Source: Elusimicrobiaceae bacterium (GTDB lineage Bacteria > Elusimicrobiota > Elusimicrobia > Elusimicrobiales > Elusimicrobiaceae). From it: a DNA stretch of 64,000 nucleotides. Position 1 is the first letter of the stretch; the number at the start of each line of letters is the position of its first letter. The notes below the pieces were generated by a model. That model made no database searches. It was given only the letters and a program-made list of their open reading frames with translations, and was not told the DNA's origin. Position numbers and translations under genes: made by a program. Where the stretch lies: contig JAZUPU010000032.1 in assembly GCA_045605325.1 (NCBI GenBank), positions 1,506 to 65,505 on the forward strand. Direction: 5' to 3'. This document shows positions 5,120 through 52,125 of the stretch, one piece after another.

Positions 5120-5791
5120 TTATTTAAGACCTTTCAAAATCGCAGGTACTTCTTTAGCAGCTTTAGATTTAGGATAATCTTGGGTAATAGATTTTAAATA
5201 ATTTTTTGCTTCATCTTTCTTTCCTAAAGGAATTATACTTTTTGCATAAACAAGACGTGCACCGGCCACGAAATTTCCTTTCGGGAATTTTTCCATTAAA
5301 GTAGCTGCTGTTATTGCGGCGGAAGTATAATCTTCTTTCTCTAAATAAATTTTTGCGATATTTAAGTATGCTTCTTCGGCTGATGCACCGCGGGATTCGG
5401 TGGCTTTTAAGTAAAGCCCATAGCCCTGCAAAGCGGCATCATACTGTTTGTTTTCAAATTGTTTTTTTGCCTGTGAATAAATTTCAGAAGGAAGAACAGT
5501 GGTATTAGATTTTTTTACTAAAGCTTCCAAGTTATCAAGTTTAGTATTTAGATCATCAATTTTATATTCAAAATTTTCTAAATTATCTGTTGCTTGTGTA
5601 AGGCGGCCGATAAGCTCTTCCATTTGCACGGCATTATCAGCTTGGTTCTTTTGTAAATCTTGAACCGTTTTATTAAGTTGGGAAATTTGTAATTTTAAAA
5701 TTTGTGTATCTTCTTGCGTTGCTAAACAACCGCAAAAAAGAAAAGAGGCACATCCTACCAAAAGAAATGATTTTAAAAATTTTCCGTTCAT
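5120..5791 (-). CDS. cpoB: YbgF/CpoB-like Tol-Pal associated protein (coiled coil + TPR)
   Basis: Signal/lipobox-like N-terminus, a coiled-coil segment, then a TPR-like C-terminus. Lies between pal and tolB. Confidence 0.5.
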   Translation of the reverse strand: MNGKFLKSFLLVGCASFLFCGCLATQEDTQILKLQISQLNKTVQDLQKNQADNAVQMEELIGRLTQATDNLENFEYKIDDLNTKLDNLEALVKKSNTTVLPSEIYSQAKKQFENKQYDAALQGYGLYLKATESRGASAEEAYLNIAKIYLEKEDYTSAAITAATLMEKFPKGNFVAGARLVYAKSIIPLGKKDEAKNYLKSITQDYPKSKAAKEVPAILKGLK

Positions 5792-5810
5792 AAAATGTAC
5801 CTCCTTTAAA

Positions 5811-6323
5811 CTATTTGGCAGAAACTACTGTATCTGCTCTTCTGTTTTTTGCCCAGCAAGCTTCTGTTTGATCAGAGCAAAGCGGGTTTTCTTCACCGTA
5901 AGAAACGGTGTTAATATAATCTGCGTTGATACCGAGTTTAATATAATAATCTCTTACTTCATTGGCTCTTTTTTGACCTAAAGCGATATTATAAGAAATA
6001 GTACCTCTATCATCACAGTTACCTTCTACTGTAATATTTTTAATGCCTTTGAGTTTCAAAATTTCGGCATTTGCGCTTAAAATGTTTCTTGCACCTTTTG
6101 ACAAGGAATATTCATTTAAAGCAAAAAATACAGGTGCTAAATTGGCTTCAGCATTATTAACTGCATCGGTAACAACTTCCCCCTCCTCTACGACTATGGC
6201 ATCATAGTTAGAGTCGGCTGCGGCTTGTAAATCTGCTGCGGCATCAGCTTTTGCATTTTTACTGCAAGCTGCTAAACCGAGAGCAAGCCCTAAGACAAGC
6301 ATTAAGCTTAATGTTTTTTTCAT
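5811..6323 (-). CDS. pal: Peptidoglycan-associated lipoprotein Pal (OmpA-C domain)
   Basis: Lipobox LGLAAC. OmpA-like domain with NCDDRGT..YNIALGQKRA..V and RRAD. Confidence 0.8.
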   Translation of the reverse strand: MKKTLSLMLVLGLALGLAACSKNAKADAAADLQAAADSNYDAIVVEEGEVVTDAVNNAEANLAPVFFALNEYSLSKGARNILSANAEILKLKGIKNITVEGNCDDRGTISYNIALGQKRANEVRDYYIKLGINADYINTVSYGEENPLCSDQTEACWAKNRRADTVVSAK

Positions 6324-6380
6324 ATACGTCCTCCGTAAATATATAATACTAATTTAATGCAAAACAAGTCAATAAAATTT

Positions 6381-6535
6381 TAGAGGAATGTTCTACAATT
6401 TTCATTCTTTACCGTCTAATTTTTTGGTAAATTTTGATTTTTCTACTCCTAAAGTACTGAGTTCACTCCCGTTTTTCTTGGTACTTGTCGTCACAGTAAA
6501 AATTAAAATTTACTTCAAATTATCAAAGGTTATGG
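6381..6535 (-). repeat. MITE/REP-like palindromic repeat, family 1 (copy a, inverted relative to copies b/c)
   Basis: Termini aaattttgattttt ... aaaaattaaaattt and inner arms gtactttaggag / cttggtac. Aligns along its length with 28189-28345, 51963-52125 and 49985-50115. Confidence 0.7.
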
Positions 6536-6559
6536 GAACTGATATAAAATTTTTCTTAA

Positions 6560-9500
6560 TTATAAAATATTTTTTAAAGTATTTAAAATTTGTTTAACTT
6601 CGGTTAATTTATTGTTTTGCGAGGCAAAAATTCTAAAACCGTCGCCGTTAGATGCTTGCAAAAATTCTATTTTCCCTGCAAAAGTTTGCATTATTTTTGC
6701 AAGTGATTCTTGCGGTATCTGTGCATTCCTTGCAAGGTAAAAATCATAAAATTTTGCGCCGGCTTCAATGGCGCGTATTTTTATTTCTCCCGCATCGGCA
6801 GAAATTTGCATAATCTCAATTAAGTTATTTAATTCTTTTGGAGCAGGACCGCATAAATCTTCTATTTTTTGTTTGAGTTTTTGTTTTGTTTCCGCATCAG
6901 TTTCCAAAAAATCTTTATAGAATTTCAAACGTTCTTCATCACTCGGCAAATAGTCCGGCGCAATAAAAGCCGGTATACCTAAATTAACTGTCGCATACAT
7001 TTTGCGGATAACCGGTTCTCCGCGTAATTTTTTAACTTCGTTTGCAACCAAATCGCAATAAAGAGAAAGCCCGACGGCATTTACATAACCGTGTTGCCTA
7101 ATACCTAGTAAATCACCTCCGCCGCGAATTTCCAAATCACGTAAAGCAAGTTTAAAACCGCTGCCGAGTTCACTAAATTCAAGCAAAGCGGATAAACGTT
7201 TTTGCGCCTCTGCATATGAGGGTTTATTTTTCTTTTTAGGGAAATAAAAATCTTCCGGGTTAAAATCTTCTTCGCGCTTATTTAAAATCCAAGACGGTGC
7301 AAGTAAATAACAATATGCTTTTTTATTTCCGCGCCCGATTCTGCCGCGCAACTGATAAAGTTGTGCAAGCCCGAAATTTTGCGGATTTTCCACAATCAAA
7401 GTATTTGCATTTGTAACATCAAGCCCACTTTCCACGATAGTAGAGCAAAGCAAAACATCATATTTTTTATTGTAAAAATCCCACAAAGTTTTTTCAAGTT
7501 CTTGTTCAGGCATTTGACCGTGTGCGCAAATTATTTTTATTTCCGGCATAAGTTTTTGTAAATACTCGCGCTTTTCTTCCATAGTGGCAACTGTATTAAA
7601 AAGATAAAAAACCTGACCGCCGCGCGCAAGTTCCTGGCGAACGGCATTAGTTACAATGCTGTCTTCATAGGCACACAAGAAAGTTTTAATAGGCATACGG
7701 CCTTGCGGCGCAGTTTGAATAATTGACATTTGCCTTAATGCCGATAAAGATTGGTTTAAAGTGCGCGGTATCGGCGTTGCGGAAAGCATTAAAGTATGTA
7801 CGCCGACGCTTTTAGCTTTAATCTTTTCTTTTTGCTTGACACCGAAGCGGTGTTCTTCATCAACAATACACAAACCTAAATTTTTAAAAATAACATCTTT
7901 TGAAAGCAAACGGTGCGTACCCACAACGATATCCACTTTGCCGTTTTTAATATTTTCCACAACTTTTTTTTGCTCAGTTTTTGTTTGAAAACGACTTAAC
8001 ATTTCAATATTAATAGGGTATGCCTGCAAACGTTCTTTAAAAGTTTTAAAATGTTGGCTTGCAAGAACTGTCGTCGGCACCAAAACAAGAACTTGCTTGT
8101 TACTTAAAACAGCACGCAAAGCAGCGCGTATTGCAACTTCCGTTTTCCCAAAACCTACATCGCCGATAAGCACACGGTCCATAGGAATATCTTTATTAAG
8201 ATCCTGCATAATTTCATTGATAGCTTGGTTTTGATCATCTGTTTCTTGATAAGGAAAAGAGTCAGCAAATTCCCTTTCCAAATGTTCATTACCGAGTAAA
8301 ATATCTGCCTTATGCGCACTACGCAAAGCAGCGGCCTGTAAAATTTCTTTAGCAACTTTTTGAGCATCTTCTTTAACCCGTTTTTTTACTTCCTTCCAAG
8401 TGGTTGTGTTTAATGAAGAAATTTTAGGTGCACGTCCTTTTAAGCCGATGTATTTTTGCACTTTTCTAAAATCGTGCAAAGGAACATATAATTTTTGCGA
8501 ACCTTTAAATTCAATTAACAGGCAATCAAGCGGTAAATCATTTTCATTTAAAGTAATCAGCCCACCGTAACGCCCTATACCGTGTTCTTGATGGACCACA
8601 TAATCCCCGATTTCAAGTTCTTTAAAGCGTACATATTTAGAAGAAGTTTTATCAAATTTTTCTGCAAAATTTGTTTGTTTGTACGAGTGTTTTAAAAGTT
8701 GTGCCGAAGTAAAAAAAGCAAAATTTTCCTTAGTACTGTAAAACCCTTCTTGCAAAGGGGCTACACTGATACTTAAGGTTTTTAATCCGTCATAATCTTG
8801 GAAAACTTCTGTTAATCTTTCCATTTCCCCTTTATTTAAACAAAAGAAAGTGCTTTGAATATTTTTCTTGTTTAAGTTTAAAATTTCGCTATCAAACAAA
8901 GCAAAGTTTGCTTTAAAATCAAGCGGCGAACGCAAAAAACTGTCAACCCCATTTTCTGGAGGTAAATCGGTTAAAATTGTGGCTTCATTTTCTTGCAAAA
9001 ATTCTTGGGGCGGCTCAAAATAAAAATTATTAAAATCTTGCAACCAACGCGATAAAGTTGATGGTTTGACCTCAAATTCAAAAGGCAAAATTAAAATATC
9101 TTCAGCGGCGGAAATAGTATTTTGAGTATCCAAATCAAATACGGAAATTTGTTCTATTGTGTTTGCTTTAAAATATAGGCGAACAGGTTTTGCTGAGTTT
9201 ATCGGAAAGATATCAAGTACGCTGCCACGCACGGCATAATCGGCAGGGGTTTCGGTGAAATCCACACGTTTATAATTTAGTTTATTTAAAGTGTTTAAAA
9301 ATTCTGCACGGTTAATTGTTTGCCCTCTTTGCAATTTAAAAACTTGGGAATTAAAATCTTTTTTCCCGGCAACTTCTTGCTTTAAAGCTTCGTAAGTTGT
9401 AGCAATAAATAAAGGTTTATCGTTTTTTGAAATAGCTTCCAAAGCGGAGTATAAAGAAAATTTATCCTCGTAAATTGTTAAGAATTTACAACCGGTGTTT

Positions 9501-9646
9501 GTAGCAAAAGTTTGATAAGCGGCTTCAAAAATTTCAATTTCTTCTTCGCTATTACAGACAAAAAGAGTGCGTGCGCTTTTTTGTTTTAATACATTTATTA
9601 TAAAAAAAGCACTTGCGGAAATATTAGGAACATACACAGTTGCCAT
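6560..9646 (-). CDS. mfd: Transcription-repair coupling factor Mfd
   Basis: 1028 aa. CarD/RID-like region (YVVHQEHGIGRY), SF2 helicase motifs (GDVGFGKTEVA, DEEHRFG, SATPIPRT) and a TRG region. Confidence 0.95.
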   Translation of the reverse strand: MATVYVPNISASAFFIINVLKQKSARTLFVCNSEEEIEIFEAAYQTFATNTGCKFLTIYEDKFSLYSALEAISKNDKPLFIATTYEALKQEVAGKKDFNSQVFKLQRGQTINRAEFLNTLNKLNYKRVDFTETPADYAVRGSVLDIFPINSAKPVRLYFKANTIEQISVFDLDTQNTISAAEDILILPFEFEVKPSTLSRWLQDFNNFYFEPPQEFLQENEATILTDLPPENGVDSFLRSPLDFKANFALFDSEILNLNKKNIQSTFFCLNKGEMERLTEVFQDYDGLKTLSISVAPLQEGFYSTKENFAFFTSAQLLKHSYKQTNFAEKFDKTSSKYVRFKELEIGDYVVHQEHGIGRYGGLITLNENDLPLDCLLIEFKGSQKLYVPLHDFRKVQKYIGLKGRAPKISSLNTTTWKEVKKRVKEDAQKVAKEILQAAALRSAHKADILLGNEHLEREFADSFPYQETDDQNQAINEIMQDLNKDIPMDRVLIGDVGFGKTEVAIRAALRAVLSNKQVLVLVPTTVLASQHFKTFKERLQAYPINIEMLSRFQTKTEQKKVVENIKNGKVDIVVGTHRLLSKDVIFKNLGLCIVDEEHRFGVKQKEKIKAKSVGVHTLMLSATPIPRTLNQSLSALRQMSIIQTAPQGRMPIKTFLCAYEDSIVTNAVRQELARGGQVFYLFNTVATMEEKREYLQKLMPEIKIICAHGQMPEQELEKTLWDFYNKKYDVLLCSTIVESGLDVTNANTLIVENPQNFGLAQLYQLRGRIGRGNKKAYCYLLAPSWILNKREEDFNPEDFYFPKKKNKPSYAEAQKRLSALLEFSELGSGFKLALRDLEIRGGGDLLGIRQHGYVNAVGLSLYCDLVANEVKKLRGEPVIRKMYATVNLGIPAFIAPDYLPSDEERLKFYKDFLETDAETKQKLKQKIEDLCGPAPKELNNLIEIMQISADAGEIKIRAIEAGAKFYDFYLARNAQIPQESLAKIMQTFAGKIEFLQASNGDGFRIFASQNNKLTEVKQILNTLKNIL

Positions 9647-10618: not shown

Positions 10619-10812
10619 TCAAGTATTTTGAGGAAATTTTGATTTTTACTACGACAACATCGGAGAACGAAGCCGAAGCGTTAAAAAACGTCTTCGCATC
10701 GCGCAGTAGATTTAATGGAATTTTCAATTTTTACTTTGACGACGAATACCCAGAAGTATAGGAGCGTAGCGATTTTCGGTATTCTAGGAAATGAAAAATT
10801 GAAAATTACTTA
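10619..10812 (+). repeat. Compound family-1 repeat (two nested or adjacent units)
   Basis: Starts with the canonical terminus caagtattttgaggaaattttgatttttac. An internal module gaagcg..cgcttc/cgcgcagtagatttaatgg is also seen at 28090-28130. A second unit runs ttttcaatttttactttgacgacgaatacc...ggtattctagg...aaaaattgaaaatt. Confidence 0.65.
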
Positions 10813-21435: not shown

Positions 21436-24414
21436 TTATTTTAGAATATCACCAAGCATTTTAATGTAAGCACTCGGTTTTTTGATATCTTCAAAATTTA
21501 TAGTACCGCAACGAATCATCATAACTTCTAACATATGGGATAAAATGTCATAGAAATTATTTCTGATAGGTTCTTTGCATTCCAATAAAGAAGGACCTAA
21601 AATAATGGCGCCTTTTAAACCTTTTAAATCACAAATATTGGCTATTTTAAAAGCAGATGAAATGATATGCTCCGTTGAATAAGCAGATTTTAAAGCATAA
21701 TTAAAACCGCCTCTTATACCAAGTTCTTTTGCCGCTTCCTGAGCAGCAAAAGCAACCCAACGGAATTTATCTATTTGGGAAGTCGGGAAGAAGAAACCAA
21801 AACTCCCCCAAGTATTTTCTTTATTTTTTTCCAAAGATATTACATCAGAAAAATCTTTCTTTACTATTTCACTTTCCTGATTTTCCCCTTCTACCGCTGT
21901 CATTACTTTTAATAAATCTTCGTAAGACATTTTCTTTATTCCGCTACTTTCAATACGGCGTGATAAAACTTTTACCCTCTTAACATTTGTTGCAACTTCA
22001 CCCAAAGATTTGTTTTGTCCTGTAAAAAATTCCTGAATTTGATTATCCGTTAAATTTAAAACAGAATTGGTTACTAGTTTATTTGTTAATTTCGCAAAAT
22101 TATCTTTACCGGGAACTTTAACTTCGGCAATAGTTCCGATAGAAAATTTAAAATTAACTAATTCCTCAAACCTTTTTAAACTTTCAGGAGGATATTTTGA
22201 AGATAAAATAATCTGTTTTTTATTCTGTAAAAAATCATTTAAAACTTTTGATATATATTCCCTGTTATGTTCATTTACGGCTGTTAAATGTACATCATCA
22301 ACAATTAATACTTCAGCATTATTAAAGAATTCATCTAATTTATCTTTTTTACCTCTTTCTAATAAATATTGTACACCCCTTGAAAGGCGCACACCGTTTG
22401 TAAATAAAATTTTAGCTTGAGGTATTTTTTTAGAAATTTCATAACCCATAGCATTTAAAAAATGTGTTTTACCGGTACCGCTTTCCCCTTGCAAAAGGAA
22501 AGGATTATTTGTTGTTCCTAAATTATCTAATGTTACCATTGCCATAGCATGCGCAAAACGAATAGAAGAAATATCCATATTAGCAAAAGTATAAGTAGGA
22601 ATTAAGGGCATTTCTATCGGATAATTTTTATATTTTGTTTCTTTTGAAGGCGTAGCGACATGTAATGTATGGTCTATCTTCTCTTTATTTCCAGTAATGT
22701 TTTGATGATTATTTTGTATTTTATTAAACATATTTTGTTTTGGTGTTTGCATATTTTCCCCTTCTCCTTTTTCAACAATTTTCGCGGTTGTTCCTGCCAT
22801 CTCTTTTTTAGGTTCAACCTTTGAAAATTCCTGTTTATTTTTTGAAATTGCTCTTGACTCTTTTATACTCACTATACGAAATGATTTTTCTTTGTTCTCC
22901 TGTTTATTTTCTTTTTTTACTGCTTCTACTGCAGATACTTTTTTATTATCCGATACTGCTTCTATCCTATTTTGATTATGGAAATTATTTTCTGTTTTTG
23001 GTTTAACATTTTTAGTTTCTGTTTTAATATTGTTTTGTGTAAAAATTTGTGCCGGGGAAGTTAATTCTTCTATCCCTTGACTATTAGCAAAATTTTCCTT
23101 TTTAGGCAAAATATTACTTTGTAACGAATCAGAAGAAATGTCTTCTCTAGATAACGGTTTTTGTTCTTTTGGTAATACTGTATTTTCCAATTTATCCAAG
23201 GGGCTTGTTCCTTTGACTCTATCAGAATTTATTTTTTTATTTTTTTCTTCAGGTTGATCTGCATAAAATTCACATACGGTTTCAGCATTAAAAATATCAT
23301 CAACTTGCAATTTAGCTGTTAAAGAATTGCTTGTTAAATCTTCTTTCATTTGTTTTTTTGTTTCTTCACTTAATTCCTCAGGGTTCAAAAGACCTTTTTT
23401 AACAATAATACCGCTTCCTAAATTTTGGAAAGGGTTCTCTTTTTCTTGTACAGGTTGTTCTGCGGTATTTTGTTTTTTAGGTTCTTCAGATGTTAAATCT
23501 TGAATAAAATTTTCTTTAACTTTACTTTCTTGTCTAAGTAAAGATGAAAAATTTTGTTGTTCGTTTTGTTTTAATTCTTCCGGTTTTGCTTTTTGTTCAA
23601 TAGGTTTATTGTGTTTTATTACTGATTTTATTTTACCGAACATATTTTTCAAGAAGCCCTTATTTTCAGGTTCTACTGTAATAGAAACATCTTGTATCTC
23701 TTCAGGGGAAAAAGAAACAACAGTTTTATTTTCTTCTACGGATGTCTTGTGTTCTTGTGTAGGAATTGCAGGGGTAATTGATTCCTGTTTTAAATTTTCT
23801 TCTTGTTCCGGCTTTTTTATCTCTGAAAACGTTTGAGCTATTTTTAGAGGTTCTCCTTCAAGTGATATTTTTGTTTCACCGTCAGAAATTTTATTGTTAA
23901 CAAATAAGTTATCAAAAGAAGTATCTTCACTTTCTTTATCTATATTAAAACCTGTTTTTGCAAGAGATAACGCCGGAATACTAACCCCACTTTTTTGTTG
24001 TTCCTCGGAAAGATTAGTTTGCTCATTAACGGTATTAACGAATATATCTTCCGGGGTATAATCTTTTTTAAAATTTGTAAAGGTTTTGTTTATTTGTGGG
24101 ATATTAGTTAAGGGATTTTCCTCAACTGTAAAAGTAGATGTTTTTAAAGCATTACCGAAAGTTTGTGTTTCACCTTGAAAAGTAGATGAAAGTGTCTCTA
24201 ATCTATACCTAACTTTTTCAAGCATAGAATTGTCAGTGATACCTGATAATTCAAAAACATAATCAAAACCTTTAACTTTTACATTTATTAATTTACAAAA
24301 ACCGGAAAGACCTTGTTTTACATCTTCACAACCCTGCAGATCTGCTTTTAATAAAAGTAAAAAAATAGAATTTTTTGTTAAAGTATTTTCTCTTATCTCA
24401 TAATTATCTATCAT
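21436..24414 (-). CDS. Large protein with a DnaA-domain-III-like AAA+ module, a long E/K/Q/N-rich disordered region and an unknown C-terminal domain
   Basis: 992 aa. Residues of roughly 620-800 align with the window's own DnaA: NPFLLQGESGTGKTHFLNAMG vs [28 protein letters not shown] vs LLIDDIQ, KKQIILSSKYPP vs QKQIVLTCDKTP. No DnaA domain IV motif was seen. Confidence 0.6.
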   Translation of the reverse strand: MIDNYEIRENTLTKNSIFLLLLKADLQGCEDVKQGLSGFCKLINVKVKGFDYVFELSGITDNSMLEKVRYRLETLSSTFQGETQTFGNALKTSTFTVEENPLTNIPQINKTFTNFKKDYTPEDIFVNTVNEQTNLSEEQQKSGVSIPALSLAKTGFNIDKESEDTSFDNLFVNNKISDGETKISLEGEPLKIAQTFSEIKKPEQEENLKQESITPAIPTQEHKTSVEENKTVVSFSPEEIQDVSITVEPENKGFLKNMFGKIKSVIKHNKPIEQKAKPEELKQNEQQNFSSLLRQESKVKENFIQDLTSEEPKKQNTAEQPVQEKENPFQNLGSGIIVKKGLLNPEELSEETKKQMKEDLTSNSLTAKLQVDDIFNAETVCEFYADQPEEKNKKINSDRVKGTSPLDKLENTVLPKEQKPLSREDISSDSLQSNILPKKENFANSQGIEELTSPAQIFTQNNIKTETKNVKPKTENNFHNQNRIEAVSDNKKVSAVEAVKKENKQENKEKSFRIVSIKESRAISKNKQEFSKVEPKKEMAGTTAKIVEKGEGENMQTPKQNMFNKIQNNHQNITGNKEKIDHTLHVATPSKETKYKNYPIEMPLIPTYTFANMDISSIRFAHAMAMVTLDNLGTTNNPFLLQGESGTGKTHFLNAMGYEISKKIPQAKILFTNGVRLSRGVQYLLERGKKDKLDEFFNNAEVLIVDDVHLTAVNEHNREYISKVLNDFLQNKKQIILSSKYPPESLKRFEELVNFKFSIGTIAEVKVPGKDNFAKLTNKLVTNSVLNLTDNQIQEFFTGQNKSLGEVATNVKRVKVLSRRIESSGIKKMSYEDLLKVMTAVEGENQESEIVKKDFSDVISLEKNKENTWGSFGFFFPTSQIDKFRWVAFAAQEAAKELGIRGGFNYALKSAYSTEHIISSAFKIANICDLKGLKGAIILGPSLLECKEPIRNNFYDILSHMLEVMMIRCGTINFEDIKKPSAYIKMLGDILK

Positions 24415-27409: not shown

Positions 27410-27931
27410 TTAAAACGGACAAGAATAATAATTATTTACATTATTCGCATATAAAAAATTACATTTTAACAAATCAGAACAAAAACCATTTTGTGCATAT
27501 TCATAACACAGCAACTTGTTTTCCGGTAAATTGATACTAGCTTTATTTCTAATATAAAAACCTGAAAATTTATATTTACCTGTTTTACGAAGGGAAAAGA
27601 TACTACCGGATATAAGAACGACATTTTTTTCATTTGACAAGCAATCTGTTTTGTTCCAAAAAATAGAAAAATCTTCGCAACCATTCCTTTCATAACCACT
27701 TAAATTAATATCTAAATCGTCAAAATTTGTTGCAAATGTTCCGTTTGCTAAATAATATCTGTGTTGCGCTTCGTATAATGCTTTAACATTTATTAATAAT
27801 TCGCTTGCTTCTGATTTTTCTTTTGCGCGGCGATACTGCGGTAAAGCAATTGCTGCTAAAATGCCGATAATTAAAATAACTACTAATAATTCAAGCAATG
27901 TGAAACCTTGACTACTGTTTTTTATTTTCAT
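27410..27931 (-). CDS. Prepilin-type N-terminal cleavage/methylation-domain protein (type IV pilin/pseudopilin-like), paralog 1
   Basis: Motif GFTLLELLVVILIIGILAAIALPQY. 173 aa. The first roughly 85 aa are almost identical to the gene at 47894-48433. Conserved Cys pattern in the C-terminus. Confidence 0.85.
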   Translation of the reverse strand: MKIKNSSQGFTLLELLVVILIIGILAAIALPQYRRAKEKSEASELLINVKALYEAQHRYYLANGTFATNFDDLDINLSGYERNGCEDFSIFWNKTDCLSNEKNVVLISGSIFSLRKTGKYKFSGFYIRNKASINLPENKLLCYEYAQNGFCSDLLKCNFLYANNVNNYYSCPF

Positions 27932-27980: not shown

Positions 27981-28007
27981 ATTTTAGAAAAAAAAAAAAA
28001 TAGTCAA
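27981..28007 (-). promoter_or_regulatory. Sigma70-like promoter of pilin paralog 1 with a T13 tract in the spacer (15-bp spacer)
   Basis: The minus strand reads TTGACT-a-T13-c-TAAAAT. It is homologous to the promoter at 47815-47843, which has T15. Confidence 0.55.
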
Positions 28008-28188
28008 GTGGGCTTTTTTACCGTCGTAAAAAAATGTATGTTAAAATAATTTTTTATTAATTTTTGCTTTGATATTAGTTTTTAAAACCGAAGCGAATGG
28101 AAATGTTTTCGCGCTGCGCAGCAAATTTAAGATGATTTTTTATTTTTATCTGACGACAAAAAAACAAGGCCAAACAGAATTCGTAAAA

Positions 28189-28345
28189 CCGGCAAGTATT
28201 TTTGAGGAAATTTCAATTTTTTCTTTGACGACGAGTACTAAGAAGAACGGGAGCGGAGCGACTCTCGGTACTCTAGGAAAAGAAAAATTAAAATTTACCA
28301 AAAAGACTTTGACGGCAAAGAATATTTACTGCAGATTTCCTATTT
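28189..28345 (+). repeat. MITE/REP-like palindromic repeat, family 1 (copy b)
   Basis: ccggcaagtatttttgaggaaatttcaatttttt...gacgacgagtactaagaagaacgggag...ctcggtactctagg...gaaaaattaaaatttaccaaaaagactttgacggcaaagaat. Confidence 0.7.
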
Positions 28346-34203: not shown

Positions 34204-34475
34204 TGATATACTTTAAAAAACGAAAGGAGTGTTTTTATTTTTTAATGTAAGCCGATAACGGCTTAATACAATTTAATCTGTTTTTGGCCCGTAACGACGG
34301 AGAGTTAATAGAAATATTAACGCATATAGAAACCAAAAACAGTCGTATGGGCACAAAGCAAGAGGATTAATTACCCTCTTACTTTGTGCTTAATGTTTGT
34401 TATCGCAAGATAATAAACTACGACTGTTATGTTTTTGGTCTTTCTATATGCCCGAAACACAATAGTCGTTTTTTT
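34204..34475 (+). promoter_or_regulatory. Extended -10 promoter plus a roughly 260-nt structured leader RNA with antiterminator/terminator switch (copy B)
   Basis: TGaTATACT at 34204-34212. Same helix order as copy A, with compensatory substitutions. Terminator stem cgactgttatgtttttgg / ccgaaacacaatagtcg followed by T7 (ends 34475). Confidence 0.55.
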
Positions 34476-34494
34476 ATTTAGAAAAGGAGAAATT

Positions 34495-35034
34495 ATGAAA
34501 GAAAAACAAAAAATTATAAATAAAAAATTCACTAAAGGTTTTACCCTATTAGAACTTTTAGTTGTAGTATTAATTATCGGAGTTCTTGCTGCTATTGCTT
34601 TGCCGCAATATAATATGGCAGTAGCAAAAAGTAAATATAATACTATAAAAACAATGACGGAAGATCTAGTTTCATCAGTAGAGAGATATTATTTAGCAAC
34701 AAACACTAAACCTACGAACTTGGAAGATTTGGACATAGAGATAGAAGGAGAATATAAAAATAATTCTAAATTAAGAAAAATTTTACCAAACGGAGCAGAA
34801 TGCGGTTTCAATTATGGTACAGATGATTTTCAAGAAATTGTATGCATCACTAAAGTAAACGGTAAAACCATGTATTACCTGAGTACTTTTTATTATAAAA
34901 TTTCTAAACAAGAAAGACTTTGCTACGCTTCTACTAATATTACAGATATTACCAATAAATTATGCCAAATCGAAACAGGAAAAAATTCACCAACATCTTC
35001 TTGTCAAAGTTATTATTGTCCGTACGAATATTAA
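34495..35034 (+). CDS. Prepilin-type N-terminal methylation-domain protein (pilin/pseudopilin-like), paralog 3
   Basis: Start at MKEKQKIINKKFTKGFTLLELLVVVLIIGVLAAIALPQY with SD AAGGAGA. The ORF-track start at 34429 lies inside the leader terminator. Confidence 0.85.
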   Translation: MKEKQKIINKKFTKGFTLLELLVVVLIIGVLAAIALPQYNMAVAKSKYNTIKTMTEDLVSSVERYYLATNTKPTNLEDLDIEIEGEYKNNSKLRKILPNGAECGFNYGTDDFQEIVCITKVNGKTMYYLSTFYYKISKQERLCYASTNITDITNKLCQIETGKNSPTSSCQSYYCPYEY

Positions 35035-47814: not shown

Positions 47815-47843
47815 TTGACTATTTTTTTTTTTTTTTCTAAAAT
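47815..47843 (+). promoter_or_regulatory. Sigma70-like promoter of pilin paralog 2 with a T15 tract in the spacer (17-bp spacer)
   Basis: TTGACT (47815-47820)-a-T15 (47822-47836)-c-TAAAAT (47838-47843). Confidence 0.6.
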
Positions 47844-47893
47844 ATATATGTAGCGAAATTAAAAACACTGTATAAATTAATTTGGGGACATTT

Positions 47894-48433
47894 ATGAAAG
47901 GAATAAAGAAAGGTAACAAAGGTTTTACATTACTTGAATTATTAGTAGTTATTTTAATTATCGGGATTTTAGCTGCAATTGCCTTACCGCAATATAGGCG
48001 CGCAAAAGAAAAATCAGAAGCTAGTGAATTATTAATAAACGTTAAAGCATTACACGAAGCGCAACAAAGATATTATTTAGCAAACGGAACATTTGCAACA
48101 AATTTTGATGATTTAGATATTAATTTAAGTGGTTATGAAAGGGGTGGTTGCGAAGATTTTGAGACATTTCACAATAAAAATGATTGTCTTTCAAATAATA
48201 AAAACATAATTTTTATTCAGAACGATGGTGCAAATTTAATTTCTCTACGAAAAACAGGGAAATATCAAAAGTCAGGATTTTCATTTAGGGAAATTGTTAC
48301 TGATGCCCGTCCGGAAAACAAATTACTTTGTTATGAATATAATATGAGTGGTTTTTGTTCCGAGTTATTAAAGTGCGATTCAATAGTATATGTGCCTAAT
48401 AATATAAATGGTTTTTACTCTTGTAACCTTTAA
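47894..48433 (+). CDS. Prepilin-type N-terminal methylation-domain protein (pilin/pseudopilin-like), paralog 2
   Basis: Sequence MKGIKKGNKGFTLLELLVVILIIGILAAIALPQYRRAKEKSEASELL. The ATG at 47894 is preferred over the upstream non-ATG start of the ORF track. Confidence 0.85.
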   Translation: MKGIKKGNKGFTLLELLVVILIIGILAAIALPQYRRAKEKSEASELLINVKALHEAQQRYYLANGTFATNFDDLDINLSGYERGGCEDFETFHNKNDCLSNNKNIIFIQNDGANLISLRKTGKYQKSGFSFREIVTDARPENKLLCYEYNMSGFCSELLKCDSIVYVPNNINGFYSCNL

Positions 48434-49984: not shown

Positions 49985-50115
49985 TTGTGCTGTCTGCGTC
50001 TTTTTAATAAATTTTGATTTTTTAGCTCCTAAAGTACCGAGAGTCGCTTTTCTCCCGTTCTTCTTGGTACTTGTCGTCGTAGTAAAAATCAAAATTTCCT
50101 CAAAATACTTGCCGG
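49985..50115 (-). repeat. MITE/REP-like palindromic repeat, family 1 (copy d, inverted)
   Basis: The reverse complement reads ccggcaagtattttgaggaaattttgatttttactacgacgacaagtaccaagaagaacgggag...ctcggtactttaggagctaaaaaatcaaaattt. Confidence 0.7.
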
Positions 50116-50200
50116 TTGTTACTTATGGTTTGTCTTTATTGACAGACAAAAACTTTTTTAATATAATTTTTCGGTAGCTATTTTTTAAAAGGGGTTATTT

Positions 50201-51962: not shown

Positions 51963-52125
51963 CCGGCAAATATTTTTGAGGAAATTTTGATTTTCTCTTT
52001 GACGACGAGTACCAAGAAGAACGTGGAGCGAAGCGACATCTCGGTACTATAGGAAAAGAAAAATCAAAATTTACCAAAAAGAATTAGCCGGCAATAAACA
52101 GTAATTGCAAATTTCCAATTTCTTA
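51963..52125 (+). repeat. MITE/REP-like palindromic repeat, family 1 (copy c)
   Basis: ccggcaaatatttttgaggaaattttgattttctctttgacgacgagtaccaagaagaacg...ctcggtactatagg...gaaaaatcaaaatttaccaaaaagaattagccggcaataaac. Confidence 0.7.

What the first reader, a model, noticed from the sequence alone, without database searches (positions are those of the whole stretch)
47815..47843. Poly-T tract sets the promoter spacer of pilin paralog 2 to the optimal 17 bp, a candidate phase-variable promoter (ON state)
The sequence is TTGACT - a T15 c - TAAAAT, so the whole spacer is essentially a homopolymer. Homopolymeric tracts between -35 and -10 are the established slipped-strand mechanism for phase variation of fimbrial and outer-membrane genes, for example the Bordetella fim, Haemophilus hif and Neisseria opc/porA promoters.

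The paralogous promoter at 27981-28007 is identical in layout but carries T13. This shows that tract length really does vary between copies of this promoter.
Basis: partly seen in the sequence, partly recalled or inferred. Interest (0 to 1): 0.72.

Follow-up and report, generated by a model that had tools for sequence, protein, structure and literature searches.

The report
Variable poly-T spacer in pilin promoters
Two pilin genes of an uncultured gut Elusimicrobiaceae bacterium have promoters whose spacer is a run of 13 or 15 T's; in sister species this run is the one non-coding place where near-identical strains differ by insertion or deletion, so it is probably a slippage-driven expression switch, a textbook mechanism not reported before in this phylum.

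Summary
TTGACT-a-T15-c-TAAAAT lies at 47815-47843, 50 nt upstream of a type IV pilin gene. Its inverted paralog carries TTGACT-a-T13-c-TAAAAT at 28007-27981. These are the only A/T homopolymers of 9 nt or more in the 64 kb window.

The window comes from an Elusimicrobiaceae MAG.
- In one species, five samples carry T13, T13, T14, T15 and T15. This is the only non-coding indel in 7.2 kb, and tract length does not follow strain relatedness.
- In another species, two samples differ by 24 SNPs and one indel (T15 versus T16) in 10.9 kb.
- A related promoter with an interrupted T-rich spacer is identical in five samples.

Across Elusimicrobia, pilin genes commonly carry TTGACn-linker-T9-17 (or A11-14)-linker-TAnnnT. 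The modal form is T12 with a 16-bp spacer, and linker and tract lengths compensate for each other. No pilin gene from other phyla had such a tract.

Best reading: a sigma-70-type promoter whose spacing, and therefore pilin transcription, is reset by slipped-strand mispairing, independently for each paralog. The effect on expression, reversibility and switching rate are inferred, not shown. It is a new member of a known kind and of moderate interest.

The parts
47815..47820 (+). -35 hexamer TTGACT of the pilin 2 promoter
   Evidence: Read directly. It is the best promoter-like pair in the region. A TTGACn hexamer is conserved directly upstream of the tract in 40 related promoters. Homology between the two window paralogs begins here.
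47822..47836 (+). T15 homopolymer filling the promoter spacer (17 bp in total with the flanking a and c)
   Evidence: The equivalent tracts in sister species vary in length between samples.
47838..47843 (+). -10 hexamer TAAAAT
   Evidence: A TAnnnT hexamer is conserved 1-2 nt after the tract in most related promoters; the tandem cluster has a 6-nt linker.
47850..47893 (+). Predicted 5' UTR. The start near 47850 is inferred from the -10 position. It contains the GGGGA ribosome-binding site at 47884-47888 and the motif TGTATAAAT shared with the paralog.
   Evidence: Read directly and from the alignment with the paralog. The transcription start is not mapped.
47894..48433 (+). Pilin paralog 2, 179 aa: a type IV pilin-like protein with leader MKGIKKGNKG followed by FTLLELL
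   Evidence: ORF. TIGR02532 and PF07963 score above their cut-offs. The AlphaFold model has pLDDT 89.8 and shows the pilin helix plus beta head. The best PDB hits are Neisseria type IV pilins.
27981..28007 (-). Paralogous promoter TTGACT-a-T13-c-TAAAAT (15-bp spacer): -35 at 28007-28002, tract at 28000-27988, -10 at 27986-27981
27410..27931 (-). Pilin paralog 1, 173 aa. The aligned 0.77-kb region (promoter, 5' UTR, coding sequence and short flanks) is 84% identical in DNA to that of paralog 2.
34262..35034 (+). A third, divergent pilin gene (34495-35034) with no T tract. It is preceded instead by a roughly 230-nt structured leader (34262-34494), an alternative upstream architecture for pilin genes in this lineage.

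Best explanation
Each of the two pilin paralogs has its own sigma-70-type promoter, and almost the whole spacer between -35 (TTGACT) and -10 (TAAAAT) is a poly-T run. During replication such runs gain or lose T's by slipped-strand mispairing. Each change shifts the distance and the helical phase between the two hexamers, and so raises or lowers transcription of that pilin gene.

In the assembled state, pilin 2 (T15, 17 bp) should be well expressed. Pilin 1 (T13, 15 bp) should be weak or silent. Because every paralog carries its own tract, the population can vary which pilin, and how much of it, is made. This is a contingency or 'volume-control' system for a surface filament that is under diversifying selection.

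Shown: the anatomy, its conservation, its restriction to pilin genes, and tract-length polymorphism between near-identical strains of sister species.

Inferred: the transcription start, the effect of length on expression, and reversibility and rate within a clone.
For: 1. Anatomy.

2. Hexamers and homopolymer are conserved together. I found 40 promoters of the form TTGnnn-linker-T/A(9-16)-linker-TAnnnT in Elusimicrobia loci, and 36 are followed within 330 nt by a prepilin motif. In distant lineages the total spacer is held at 16-17 bp by compensation: cg+T12+ga, tcg+T11+gc and tg+T13+a each give 16. That is expected only if the flanking hexamers are real -35 and -10 elements.

3. Specificity. 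In 134 kb of this genus, all 8 A/T homopolymers of 9 nt or more are pilin promoter spacers. None of the roughly 55 pilin-like ORFs in loci from other phyla has one.

4. Polymorphism:
- Species A, five samples: T13, T13, T14, T15, T15. Across 7,225 columns there are 268 SNP columns and only two indel sites, the tract and one in-frame codon in the pilin gene.
- Species B, two samples: 24 SNPs and a single indel, T15 versus T16, in 10,921 columns.
- Tract length does not track relatedness. The closest pair (85 SNPs) differs T15 versus T13, while the equal-length pairs are among the most distant (151 and 158 SNPs).

5. Natural control. A pilin promoter with an interrupted T-rich spacer (tcgTTTTgccTTTTTTga) is identical in five samples.

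6. Both T and A runs occur (L004, L005, L008). This fits selection for a homopolymer as such rather than for a strand-specific protein site.

7. The product is a type IV pilin. In species A the pilin is a diversity hotspot: 13% amino-acid divergence, against 0.2% for GyrA, 0.3% for PHP and 1.0% for GDPD. The head domain is mosaic and the N-terminus is nearly invariant, with one variable column in the first 65 residues.

8. Precedent. Homopolymeric A tracts in the promoters of all vlp genes switch them on and off in Mycoplasma hyorhinis, and repeats in the promoter spacer switch Vmm (PMC10502178).
Against: - No second assembly and no reads of the window's own species are available, so polymorphism at these two sites themselves is not shown.
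- All lengths come from short-read consensus assemblies, where long homopolymers can be miscalled by about 1 nt.
- In distant Elusimicrobia the tract is a nearly constant T12, including both paralogs of one genome (L021, L023). This shows that a homopolymer spacer can be stably maintained and may have a structural role.
- In the window's genus many assembled spacers are far from 17 bp: 18-20 in species A, and 24 in the tandem cluster. Either most copies are OFF, or the E. coli spacing rule does not apply strictly.
- The largest difference (T9 versus T15) is linked to a neighbouring SNP that matches the adjacent paralog. It therefore reflects gene conversion or assembly mis-threading rather than slippage.
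- No transcription data are available.
Confidence: 0.6

Rival explanations
1. The homopolymer is mainly a conserved structural promoter element: a rigid or curved A-tract spacer, or a feature read by the lineage's RNA polymerase or a regulator. Its length differences in this genus are non-adaptive slippage noise, not a switch the cell exploits.
For: T12 with a 16-bp spacer is the mode in diverse Elusimicrobia, and is identical in paralogs of one genome (L021, L023). The design is old and lineage-wide.
Against: A purely structural element has no need to be an uninterrupted run. Both T and A runs occur. In the window's genus the spacers range from 15 to 24 bp, and these cannot all be equally functional. 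Length is homoplasious among strains. The genes are hypervariable surface pilins in multigene families, which is the usual setting for contingency loci.
Confidence: 0.24
2. The tract is genetically stable, and the observed length differences are sequencing, PCR or assembly artefacts at a long homopolymer.
For: Every assembly whose contig name shows the assembler is a short-read build (k141_, NODE_ and scaffold names). Several contigs end inside or next to the tract (L083-L088, L098, L101).
Against: - Differences of 2 nt recur in independent assemblies: T13 in L107 and L108, T15 in L103 and L109.
- There is no other non-coding indel in 7-11 kb.
- T12 is reproduced exactly in many unrelated assemblies.
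- The two window copies differ by 2 nt within a single assembly.
- The contig breaks in the tandem cluster are explained by the repeated promoter and 5' gene segments.
Confidence: 0.07
3. Transcription starts elsewhere, for example from the conserved TGTATAAAT in the 5' region. On this reading the T run acts as an UP-like A/T element, or as the U-tail of a terminator for the upstream gene, so hexamer spacing is irrelevant.
For: CTGTATAAATTAA is shared by both window paralogs, and a similar GTATAAA occurs in L103 and L106. The T run would lie about 35-50 nt upstream of that motif, where UP elements sit.
Against: - The motif abuts or overlaps the ribosome-binding site in relatives (TTGTATAAAGGAG in L103) and is absent in L001.
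- It is the TTGACn and TAnnnT hexamers flanking the tract that are conserved across lineages, with spacer compensation.
- No terminator-like hairpin precedes the tract.
- Homology between the paralogs starts exactly at the -35.
Confidence: 0.09

Closest known systems
Mycoplasma hyorhinis vlp genes (poly-A tract in the promoter of every member of a surface-lipoprotein family)
   Same: Both are multigene families of variable surface proteins. Each gene has its own promoter containing an A/T homopolymer, whose insertions and deletions switch transcription (PMC10502178, citing Citti and Wise 1995). From my own knowledge, the vlp tract lies between -35 and -10 and 17 A is the ON length.
   Different: The phylum differs (diderm Elusimicrobia versus wall-less Mollicutes), and so does the product (type IV pilins versus lipoproteins). 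Switching is demonstrated experimentally for vlp and only inferred here.
Bordetella pertussis fim2/fim3 (poly-C) and Neisseria meningitidis opc/porA (poly-C/poly-G) promoter tracts
   Different: Those are G/C tracts in pathogens, and fim additionally needs the activator BvgA. Here the tracts are T/A runs in a gut commensal lineage, with no known activator.
Haemophilus influenzae hifA/hifB fimbrial promoter (TA repeats) and Mycoplasma mycoides Vmm (TA repeats in the promoter spacer)
   Same: Repeat number in the spacer between -35 and -10 controls transcription of a pilus or surface gene (van Ham 1993, listed in PMC11868660; Vmm in PMC10502178).
   Different: Those are dinucleotide repeats, and hif is a shared divergent promoter. 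Here the repeat is a mononucleotide run and each promoter is unidirectional.
Helicobacter pylori sabA promoter poly-T and N. meningitidis nspA promoter poly-A
   Same: A/T homopolymers in promoter regions modulate expression of adhesin or surface genes by slipped-strand mispairing (PMC2715451, PMC6389960).
   Different: From my own knowledge, the sabA T tract lies next to, not between, the hexamers and acts as a rheostat through DNA topology. Here the tract is the spacer itself.
Neisseria pilE/pilS antigenic variation
   Same: Both involve a hypervariable type IV pilin with a conserved N-terminus and a mosaic head, multiple pilin copies and recombination between copies (PMC3547852).
   Different: Neisseria varies the pilin sequence by gene conversion from silent copies. 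Here each copy is a complete gene with its own, apparently mutable, promoter.

Membership tests
Simple-sequence-repeat transcriptional phase variation (promoter-spacer type) | An uninterrupted repeat lies between the -35 and -10 hexamers, so that repeat number sets their spacing | tested here: met
   TTGACT-a-T15-c-TAAAAT and TTGACT-a-T13-c-TAAAAT. The same layout occurs in 40 related promoters.
Simple-sequence-repeat transcriptional phase variation (promoter-spacer type) | Repeat number differs between strains or clones whose flanking DNA is otherwise near-identical | tested here: met
   Met in sister species: T13-T15 in five samples and T15 versus T16 in two samples, in each case the only non-coding indel. 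It could not be tested for the window's own species, which has no second assembly.
Simple-sequence-repeat transcriptional phase variation (promoter-spacer type) | Transcription level depends on repeat number | not testable with these tools
   This needs reporter constructs, or metatranscriptomes matched to tract length.
Simple-sequence-repeat transcriptional phase variation (promoter-spacer type) | High-frequency, reversible switching within a clonal population | not testable with these tools
   This needs raw reads or a cultured isolate. Homoplasy of tract length among strains is only indirect support.
Simple-sequence-repeat transcriptional phase variation (promoter-spacer type) | The controlled gene encodes a surface-exposed structure, typically one of a variable family | tested here: met
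   The prepilin motif scores above cut-off and the fold is pilin-like. There are three pilin genes in the window and tandem triplets in a sister species. Pilin amino-acid divergence is 13%, against 1% or less for flanking genes.
Type IV pilin (class III signal peptide proteins) | A short basic leader ending in Gly, then Phe+1, Glu+5 and a hydrophobic helix | tested here: met
   MKGIKKGNKG followed by FTLLELLVVILIIGILAAIALPQY. TIGR02532 scores 35.9 bits (cut-off 16.3) and PF07963 scores 37.2 bits (cut-off 21.2).
Type IV pilin (class III signal peptide proteins) | A 'lollipop' fold: a long N-terminal alpha-helix packed on a beta-sheet head | tested here: met
   The AlphaFold2 model has pLDDT 89.8, with a helix at 13-64 and seven strands. 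The top PDB matches are gonococcal and meningococcal pilins (1ay2, E 8.4e-4, probability 1.00), although TM-scores are only 0.3-0.46.
Type IV pilin (class III signal peptide proteins) | A prepilin peptidase and an assembly ATPase or platform are present in the genome | not testable with these tools
   No GspE/PilB-type Walker motif or PilD motif occurs in the 64 kb window. The rest of the genome is not available. Equivalog models (PilA, GspG) match only the N-terminal segment and score below their cut-offs, so whether this is a major pilin or a pseudopilin is undecided.
Sigma-70 -35/-10 promoter | The hexamers are conserved in orthologs, and total spacing is constrained to about 16-18 bp | tested here: inconclusive
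   The hexamers are conserved everywhere. The spacer is held at 16-17 bp in distant lineages but is 15-24 bp in the window's genus. A genus-wide count of spacer lengths at other consensus-like sites showed no peak above background. The transcription start is unmapped.

The most novel reading that the evidence does not exclude
Elusimicrobia as a phylum may maintain a dedicated promoter class for pilin genes in which the spacer is deliberately a homopolymer, ancestrally T12 with a 16-bp spacer. This would be a built-in mutational rheostat conserved over deep evolutionary time. In a ruminant-gut genus the run has expanded to T13-T16 and become strongly polymorphic.

It would work together with recombination between pilin paralogs to diversify the only surface appendage these bacteria have. 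Two forms of such recombination are suggested by the data: promoter gene conversion in tandem arrays, and a 20-kb inversion between the two inverted copies that flank oriC.
Probability: 0.35. Interest if true: 0.6.

Novelty: new member of a known kind. Interest (0 to 1): 0.5.

Why it matters
Repeat-driven phase variation has been worked out almost entirely in cultured pathogens such as Neisseria, Haemophilus, Bordetella, Helicobacter, Campylobacter and Mycoplasma. Here the same device appears in a barely cultured commensal phylum of animal guts, attached to pilins. Pilins are reported to be the only cell appendages encoded in at least one family of the phylum, the Endomicrobiaceae (PMC11257099).

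It implies that host immunity, phages that use pili as receptors, or niche changes select for stochastic pilus variation in these bacteria. It also gives a sequence signature, TTGACn-T(n)-TAnnnT upstream of a prepilin motif, that can be counted directly in metagenomic reads. That makes it possible to follow ON and OFF states in natural populations without cultivation.

The stable T12 forms and the polymorphic T13-T16 forms together offer a natural series for asking when a structural A-tract spacer becomes a contingency locus.

Tried and rejected
- **Same-species look-ups.** Exact-sequence look-ups for pilin 2, the adjacent GDPD protein and the rubredoxin next to pilin 1 all returned nothing. 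Polymorphism at the window's own two sites could therefore not be tested.
- **Genome-contig scan.** These were useful for the phylum-wide view but not for close strains.
- **Preferred spacer length.** I counted near-consensus hexamer pairs at spacers of 12-23 bp in 127 kb of this genus. The distribution was flat (5-12 per spacer length), so the count is uninformative in this AT-rich DNA.
- **Contig ends inside the tract.** I considered contigs that end inside the tract (L083-L088, L098, L101) as evidence of within-sample heterogeneity. I rejected this for the tandem cluster, where the identical promoter and 5' gene repeats explain the breaks. It remains unexplained for the Logan contigs, which stop at six T's.
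- **T9 versus T15 at one promoter.** I considered this as a six-step slippage. I rejected that because the linked SNP matches the neighbouring paralog, which points to gene conversion or assembly mis-threading.
- **Terminator reading of the T run.** No hairpin was found.
- **Rfam.** There were no hits above the gathering threshold anywhere in the window, and only chance-level hits in the pilin leader.
- **G7/G8 runs in the window.** These lie in housekeeping genes (signal peptidase, ParA, arginase) and are not further candidates.
- **Literature.** Searches found no report of homopolymer promoters or phase variation in Elusimicrobia. The E. minutum genome paper is not held.

Full report
**Observation**

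On the plus strand:
- TTGACT at 47815-47820
- a at 47821
- T15 at 47822-47836
- c at 47837
- TAAAAT at 47838-47843

This gives a 17-bp spacer. On the minus strand, TTGACT (28007-28002), a, T13 (28000-27988), c, TAAAAT (27986-27981) gives a 15-bp spacer.

The window has 35.5% G+C, and these two runs are its only A/T homopolymers of 9 nt or more. TTGACT-N-T13 occurs twice, against 0.00 expected in shuffles. The hexamer pair at 47815 is the best promoter-like match nearby (10 of 12). Such matches are, however, no commoner there than in shuffled sequence, so a consensus match alone proves little.

**The genes**

Each site lies 50-56 nt upstream of an ORF: 47894-48433 on the plus strand (179 aa) and 27931-27410 on the minus strand (173 aa). 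Both begin with a short basic leader, then G|FTLLELLVVILIIGILAAIALPQY.

- The prepilin N-terminal domain scores above the curated cut-offs (TIGR02532, PF07963). Equivalog models for PilA or GspG match only the N-terminus and score below their cut-offs.
- An AlphaFold2 model built on 33 homologs is confident (pLDDT 89.8). It has the pilin shape, with a helix at 13-64 and a beta-sheet head.
- The best PDB matches are Neisseria type IV pilins, although TM-scores are modest.

The two genes with their promoters and short flanks are 84% identical at the DNA level. Their homology begins exactly at the base before the -35 hexamer, and the sequence upstream of that is unrelated.

A third, divergent pilin gene (34495-35034) has no T run. 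No pilus assembly ATPase motif occurs in the window.

**Organism**

The closest proteins and loci come from Elusimicrobiaceae MAGs from ruminant and other animal guts. The window also contains parA, parB, dnaA, dnaN, gyrB and gyrA, and the cumulative GC-skew minimum falls at about 36-40 kb. It therefore spans the replication origin.

No second assembly of the same species is on record. The identical NifU protein and several pilin homologs, however, led to syntenic loci in sister species with 84-90% DNA identity over gyrA-GDPD.

*Species A (L103, L107, L108, L109, L111; five samples).* The promoter is TTGACT-tgca-T(n)-c-TATAAT, with n = 15, 13, 13, 15 and 14.
- Over 7,225 aligned columns there are 268 SNP columns and only two indel sites. 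One is this tract and the other is an in-frame codon inside the pilin gene.
- The closest pair of strains (85 SNPs) differs T15 versus T13. The equal-length pairs are among the most distant (151-158 SNPs). Length has therefore changed repeatedly and does not follow strain relatedness.

*Species B (L001, L002).* The pilin protein is identical in the two samples. There are 24 SNPs in 10,921 columns, and the single indel is T16 versus T15 in TTGACT-g-T(n)-cg-TAAAAT.

*Species B tandem array.* The locus syntenic with pilin 1 holds three tandem pilin genes, each with TTGACT-tga-T(n)-gttttg-TAAAAT. Here n is 9 or 15.
- One of these promoters is T15 in one sample and T9 in another.
- That change is linked to a SNP 30 nt upstream that matches the neighbouring paralog.
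- I therefore attribute it to gene conversion between promoters, or to assembly mis-threading, not to slippage.

*Natural control.* A pilin promoter whose T-rich spacer is interrupted (tcgTTTTgccTTTTTTga) is identical in five samples.

**A lineage-wide design**

Scanning all Elusimicrobia loci in hand gave 40 promoters of the form TTGnnn, a linker of 0-6 nt, T or A(9-16), a linker of 0-7 nt, then TAnnnT. Of these, 36 are followed within 330 nt by a prepilin motif.

- In distant lineages the mode is T12 with a 16-bp spacer.
- Linker and tract lengths compensate for each other: cg+T12+ga, tcg+T11+gc and tg+T13+a each give 16.
- This compensation is the strongest evidence that the flanking hexamers really are -35 and -10 elements and that total spacing is under selection.
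- Poly-A versions also exist (L004, L005, L008).
- None of the roughly 55 pilin-like ORFs in loci from other phyla has such a run.
- In 134 kb of the window's genus, all eight A/T runs of 9 nt or more are pilin promoter spacers.

**Mechanism**

Slipped-strand mispairing in the run changes the -35/-10 spacing and so changes pilin transcription, independently for each paralog.

By the usual spacing rule, and by the 16-17 bp norm in this phylum, pilin 2 (17 bp) is in an active state and pilin 1 (15 bp) in a weak or silent one. In the sister species most assembled copies have 18-24 bp. This fits a family in which most members are off at any time, but it could also mean the rule is looser here.

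The pilins themselves are diversity hotspots. In species A, pilin amino-acid divergence is 13%, against 0.2% for GyrA, 0.3% for PHP and 1.0% for GDPD. The N-terminus is nearly invariant, with one variable column in the first 65 residues, and the head is mosaic. That is the usual context for contingency loci.

Still inferred are the transcription start, the dependence of expression on tract length, and reversibility and rate within a clone.

**Rivals**

1. The run is chiefly a structural spacer element and its length changes are noise. The stable T12 in distant lineages supports this. The 15-24 bp range, the homoplasy and the existence of both T and A runs argue against it.
2. The length differences are sequencing artefacts. 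This is unlikely for recurrent 2-nt differences in independent assemblies, and T12 is reproduced exactly elsewhere.
3. The real promoter is elsewhere, for example at TGTATAAAT, and the run acts as an UP-like element or terminator tail. The motif is not conserved in position and abuts the ribosome-binding site in relatives, no hairpin precedes the run, and it is the flanking hexamers that are conserved.

**Comparison with known systems**

The closest analogue is the Mycoplasma hyorhinis vlp family, in which every member of a surface-protein family has a poly-A tract in its promoter and switches independently (PMC10502178). Other relatives:
- Bordetella fim and Neisseria opc and porA (G/C tracts)
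- Haemophilus hif and Mycoplasma Vmm (TA repeats in the spacer)
- Helicobacter sabA and Neisseria nspA (A/T tracts in promoter regions; PMC2715451, PMC6389960)

Searches of the held literature found no report of homopolymer promoters or phase variation in Elusimicrobia. [quoted passage not shown]

I therefore rate this as a new member of a known kind. The mechanism is textbook. The phylum, the conserved phylum-wide design and the natural series from stable T12 to polymorphic T13-T16 are new.

**Verdict**

Functional switching is unproven. Interest is 0.5.

Noticed in passing
window 34262-34494; also L090 925-1141, L093 915-1135, L112 5290-5510: Pilin genes that lack the T run carry a long conserved leader instead. 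This includes genes at the positions syntenic to pilin 1 and pilin 2 in other species. The leader has shared motifs (AATTTRATYCTGTTTTTGG ... CCAAAAACAGTCGT ... ACGRCTGTTAT ... AGYCGTTTTTTT) and ends in a terminator-like hairpin. RNAalifold on four sequences predicts 58 pairs, 24 of them with compensatory changes. There is no Rfam family match. It is a candidate unknown attenuator or riboswitch-like leader for pilin genes.
   Followed up: partly
L113-L163, about 33 cassette copies, mostly from JGI metagenomes Ga0209755 and JGI24694J35173; e.g. L147 4937-4965 and ORF 5225-9529: A multi-copy promoter cassette, aagtttgttgttaatatttgttaaaagtttgttcatatgc-TTGACT-T(11-14)-GATAAAATAT-acttatacactttaacag, occurs about 33 times on many contigs of one metagenome. 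The T count varies between copies. It sits upstream of giant surface proteins with a signal anchor (e.g. 1,434 aa) and of tandem-repeat regions, and not upstream of pilins. It looks like a second, independent family of homopolymer-spacer promoters. The organism was not identified.
   Followed up: partly
L106 5290-5440 (GCA_045658545.1, JAZOVE010000021.1): This is the closest relative of the window (89.7% DNA identity). At the orthologous site it has TTGACA-acg-T16-c-TATAAT, a 20-bp spacer. Its pilin reading frame is also broken at an A7 run just after the ATG, and one more A would give MNLKKRGFTLLELL. This could be a second, translational switch, a pseudogene or an assembly error.
   Followed up: partly
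window 27410-48433 (pilin 1 on the minus strand, pilin 2 on the plus strand, dnaA 38055-39422): The two pilin paralogs are inverted repeats lying about 10 kb on either side of the replication origin (parAB, dnaA and the GC-skew minimum). Each is transcribed away from the origin. Species A has GDPD-pilin-178aa(-)-FolD(-), which is the gene order expected after inversion of the 20-kb origin segment by recombination between the two pilin genes. Other relatives lack a pilin at that junction (L104, L105, L110).
   Followed up: partly
window 28183-28345, 51963-52121, 49998-50122 (-), 6404-6519 (-), 10717-10809; also L104 6879-6947: An intergenic repeat family of about 120-160 nt has five copies in the window. 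Its core is TTTGACGACGAGTACCAAGAAGAACGGGAGCGAAGCGACTCTCGGTACTnTAGGAAAAGAAAAATCAAAATTTACC, with an internal inverted repeat. One copy lies just upstream of the pilin 1 promoter. There is no Rfam match. It could be a MITE-like, REP-like or small-RNA element.
   Followed up: partly
L083-L088 (Logan contigs of DRR3377xx), L089 81-125: Six of the seven Logan contigs shown (eight are on record) that carry pilin homolog P0019 start inside its promoter run, at TTTTTTCTATAAT. Only L089 spans it (TTGACTTGCTA-T16-c-TATAAT). Why the assemblies stop at exactly six T's is unexplained. A paralogous copy with an interrupted run, or low coverage, are possible causes.
   Followed up: partly
L164-L167 (pilin P0043 locus): The number of tandem pilin genes differs between samples. 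A second, 178-aa pilin is present in L165 and L166, absent in L167, and replaced by a scaffold gap in L164. The promoter and 5' gene segment are repeated at the junction, which suggests unequal recombination between pilin repeats.
   Followed up: no
window 21436-24414 (-): A 992-aa protein whose only recognisable part is a DnaA-type AAA+ ATPase domain (residues about 570-760). It follows a long low-complexity, lysine/glutamate/asparagine-rich N-terminal half, and is encoded in addition to the canonical dnaA. It is conserved in the sister species, where a 978-aa homolog is called in L097.
   Followed up: no
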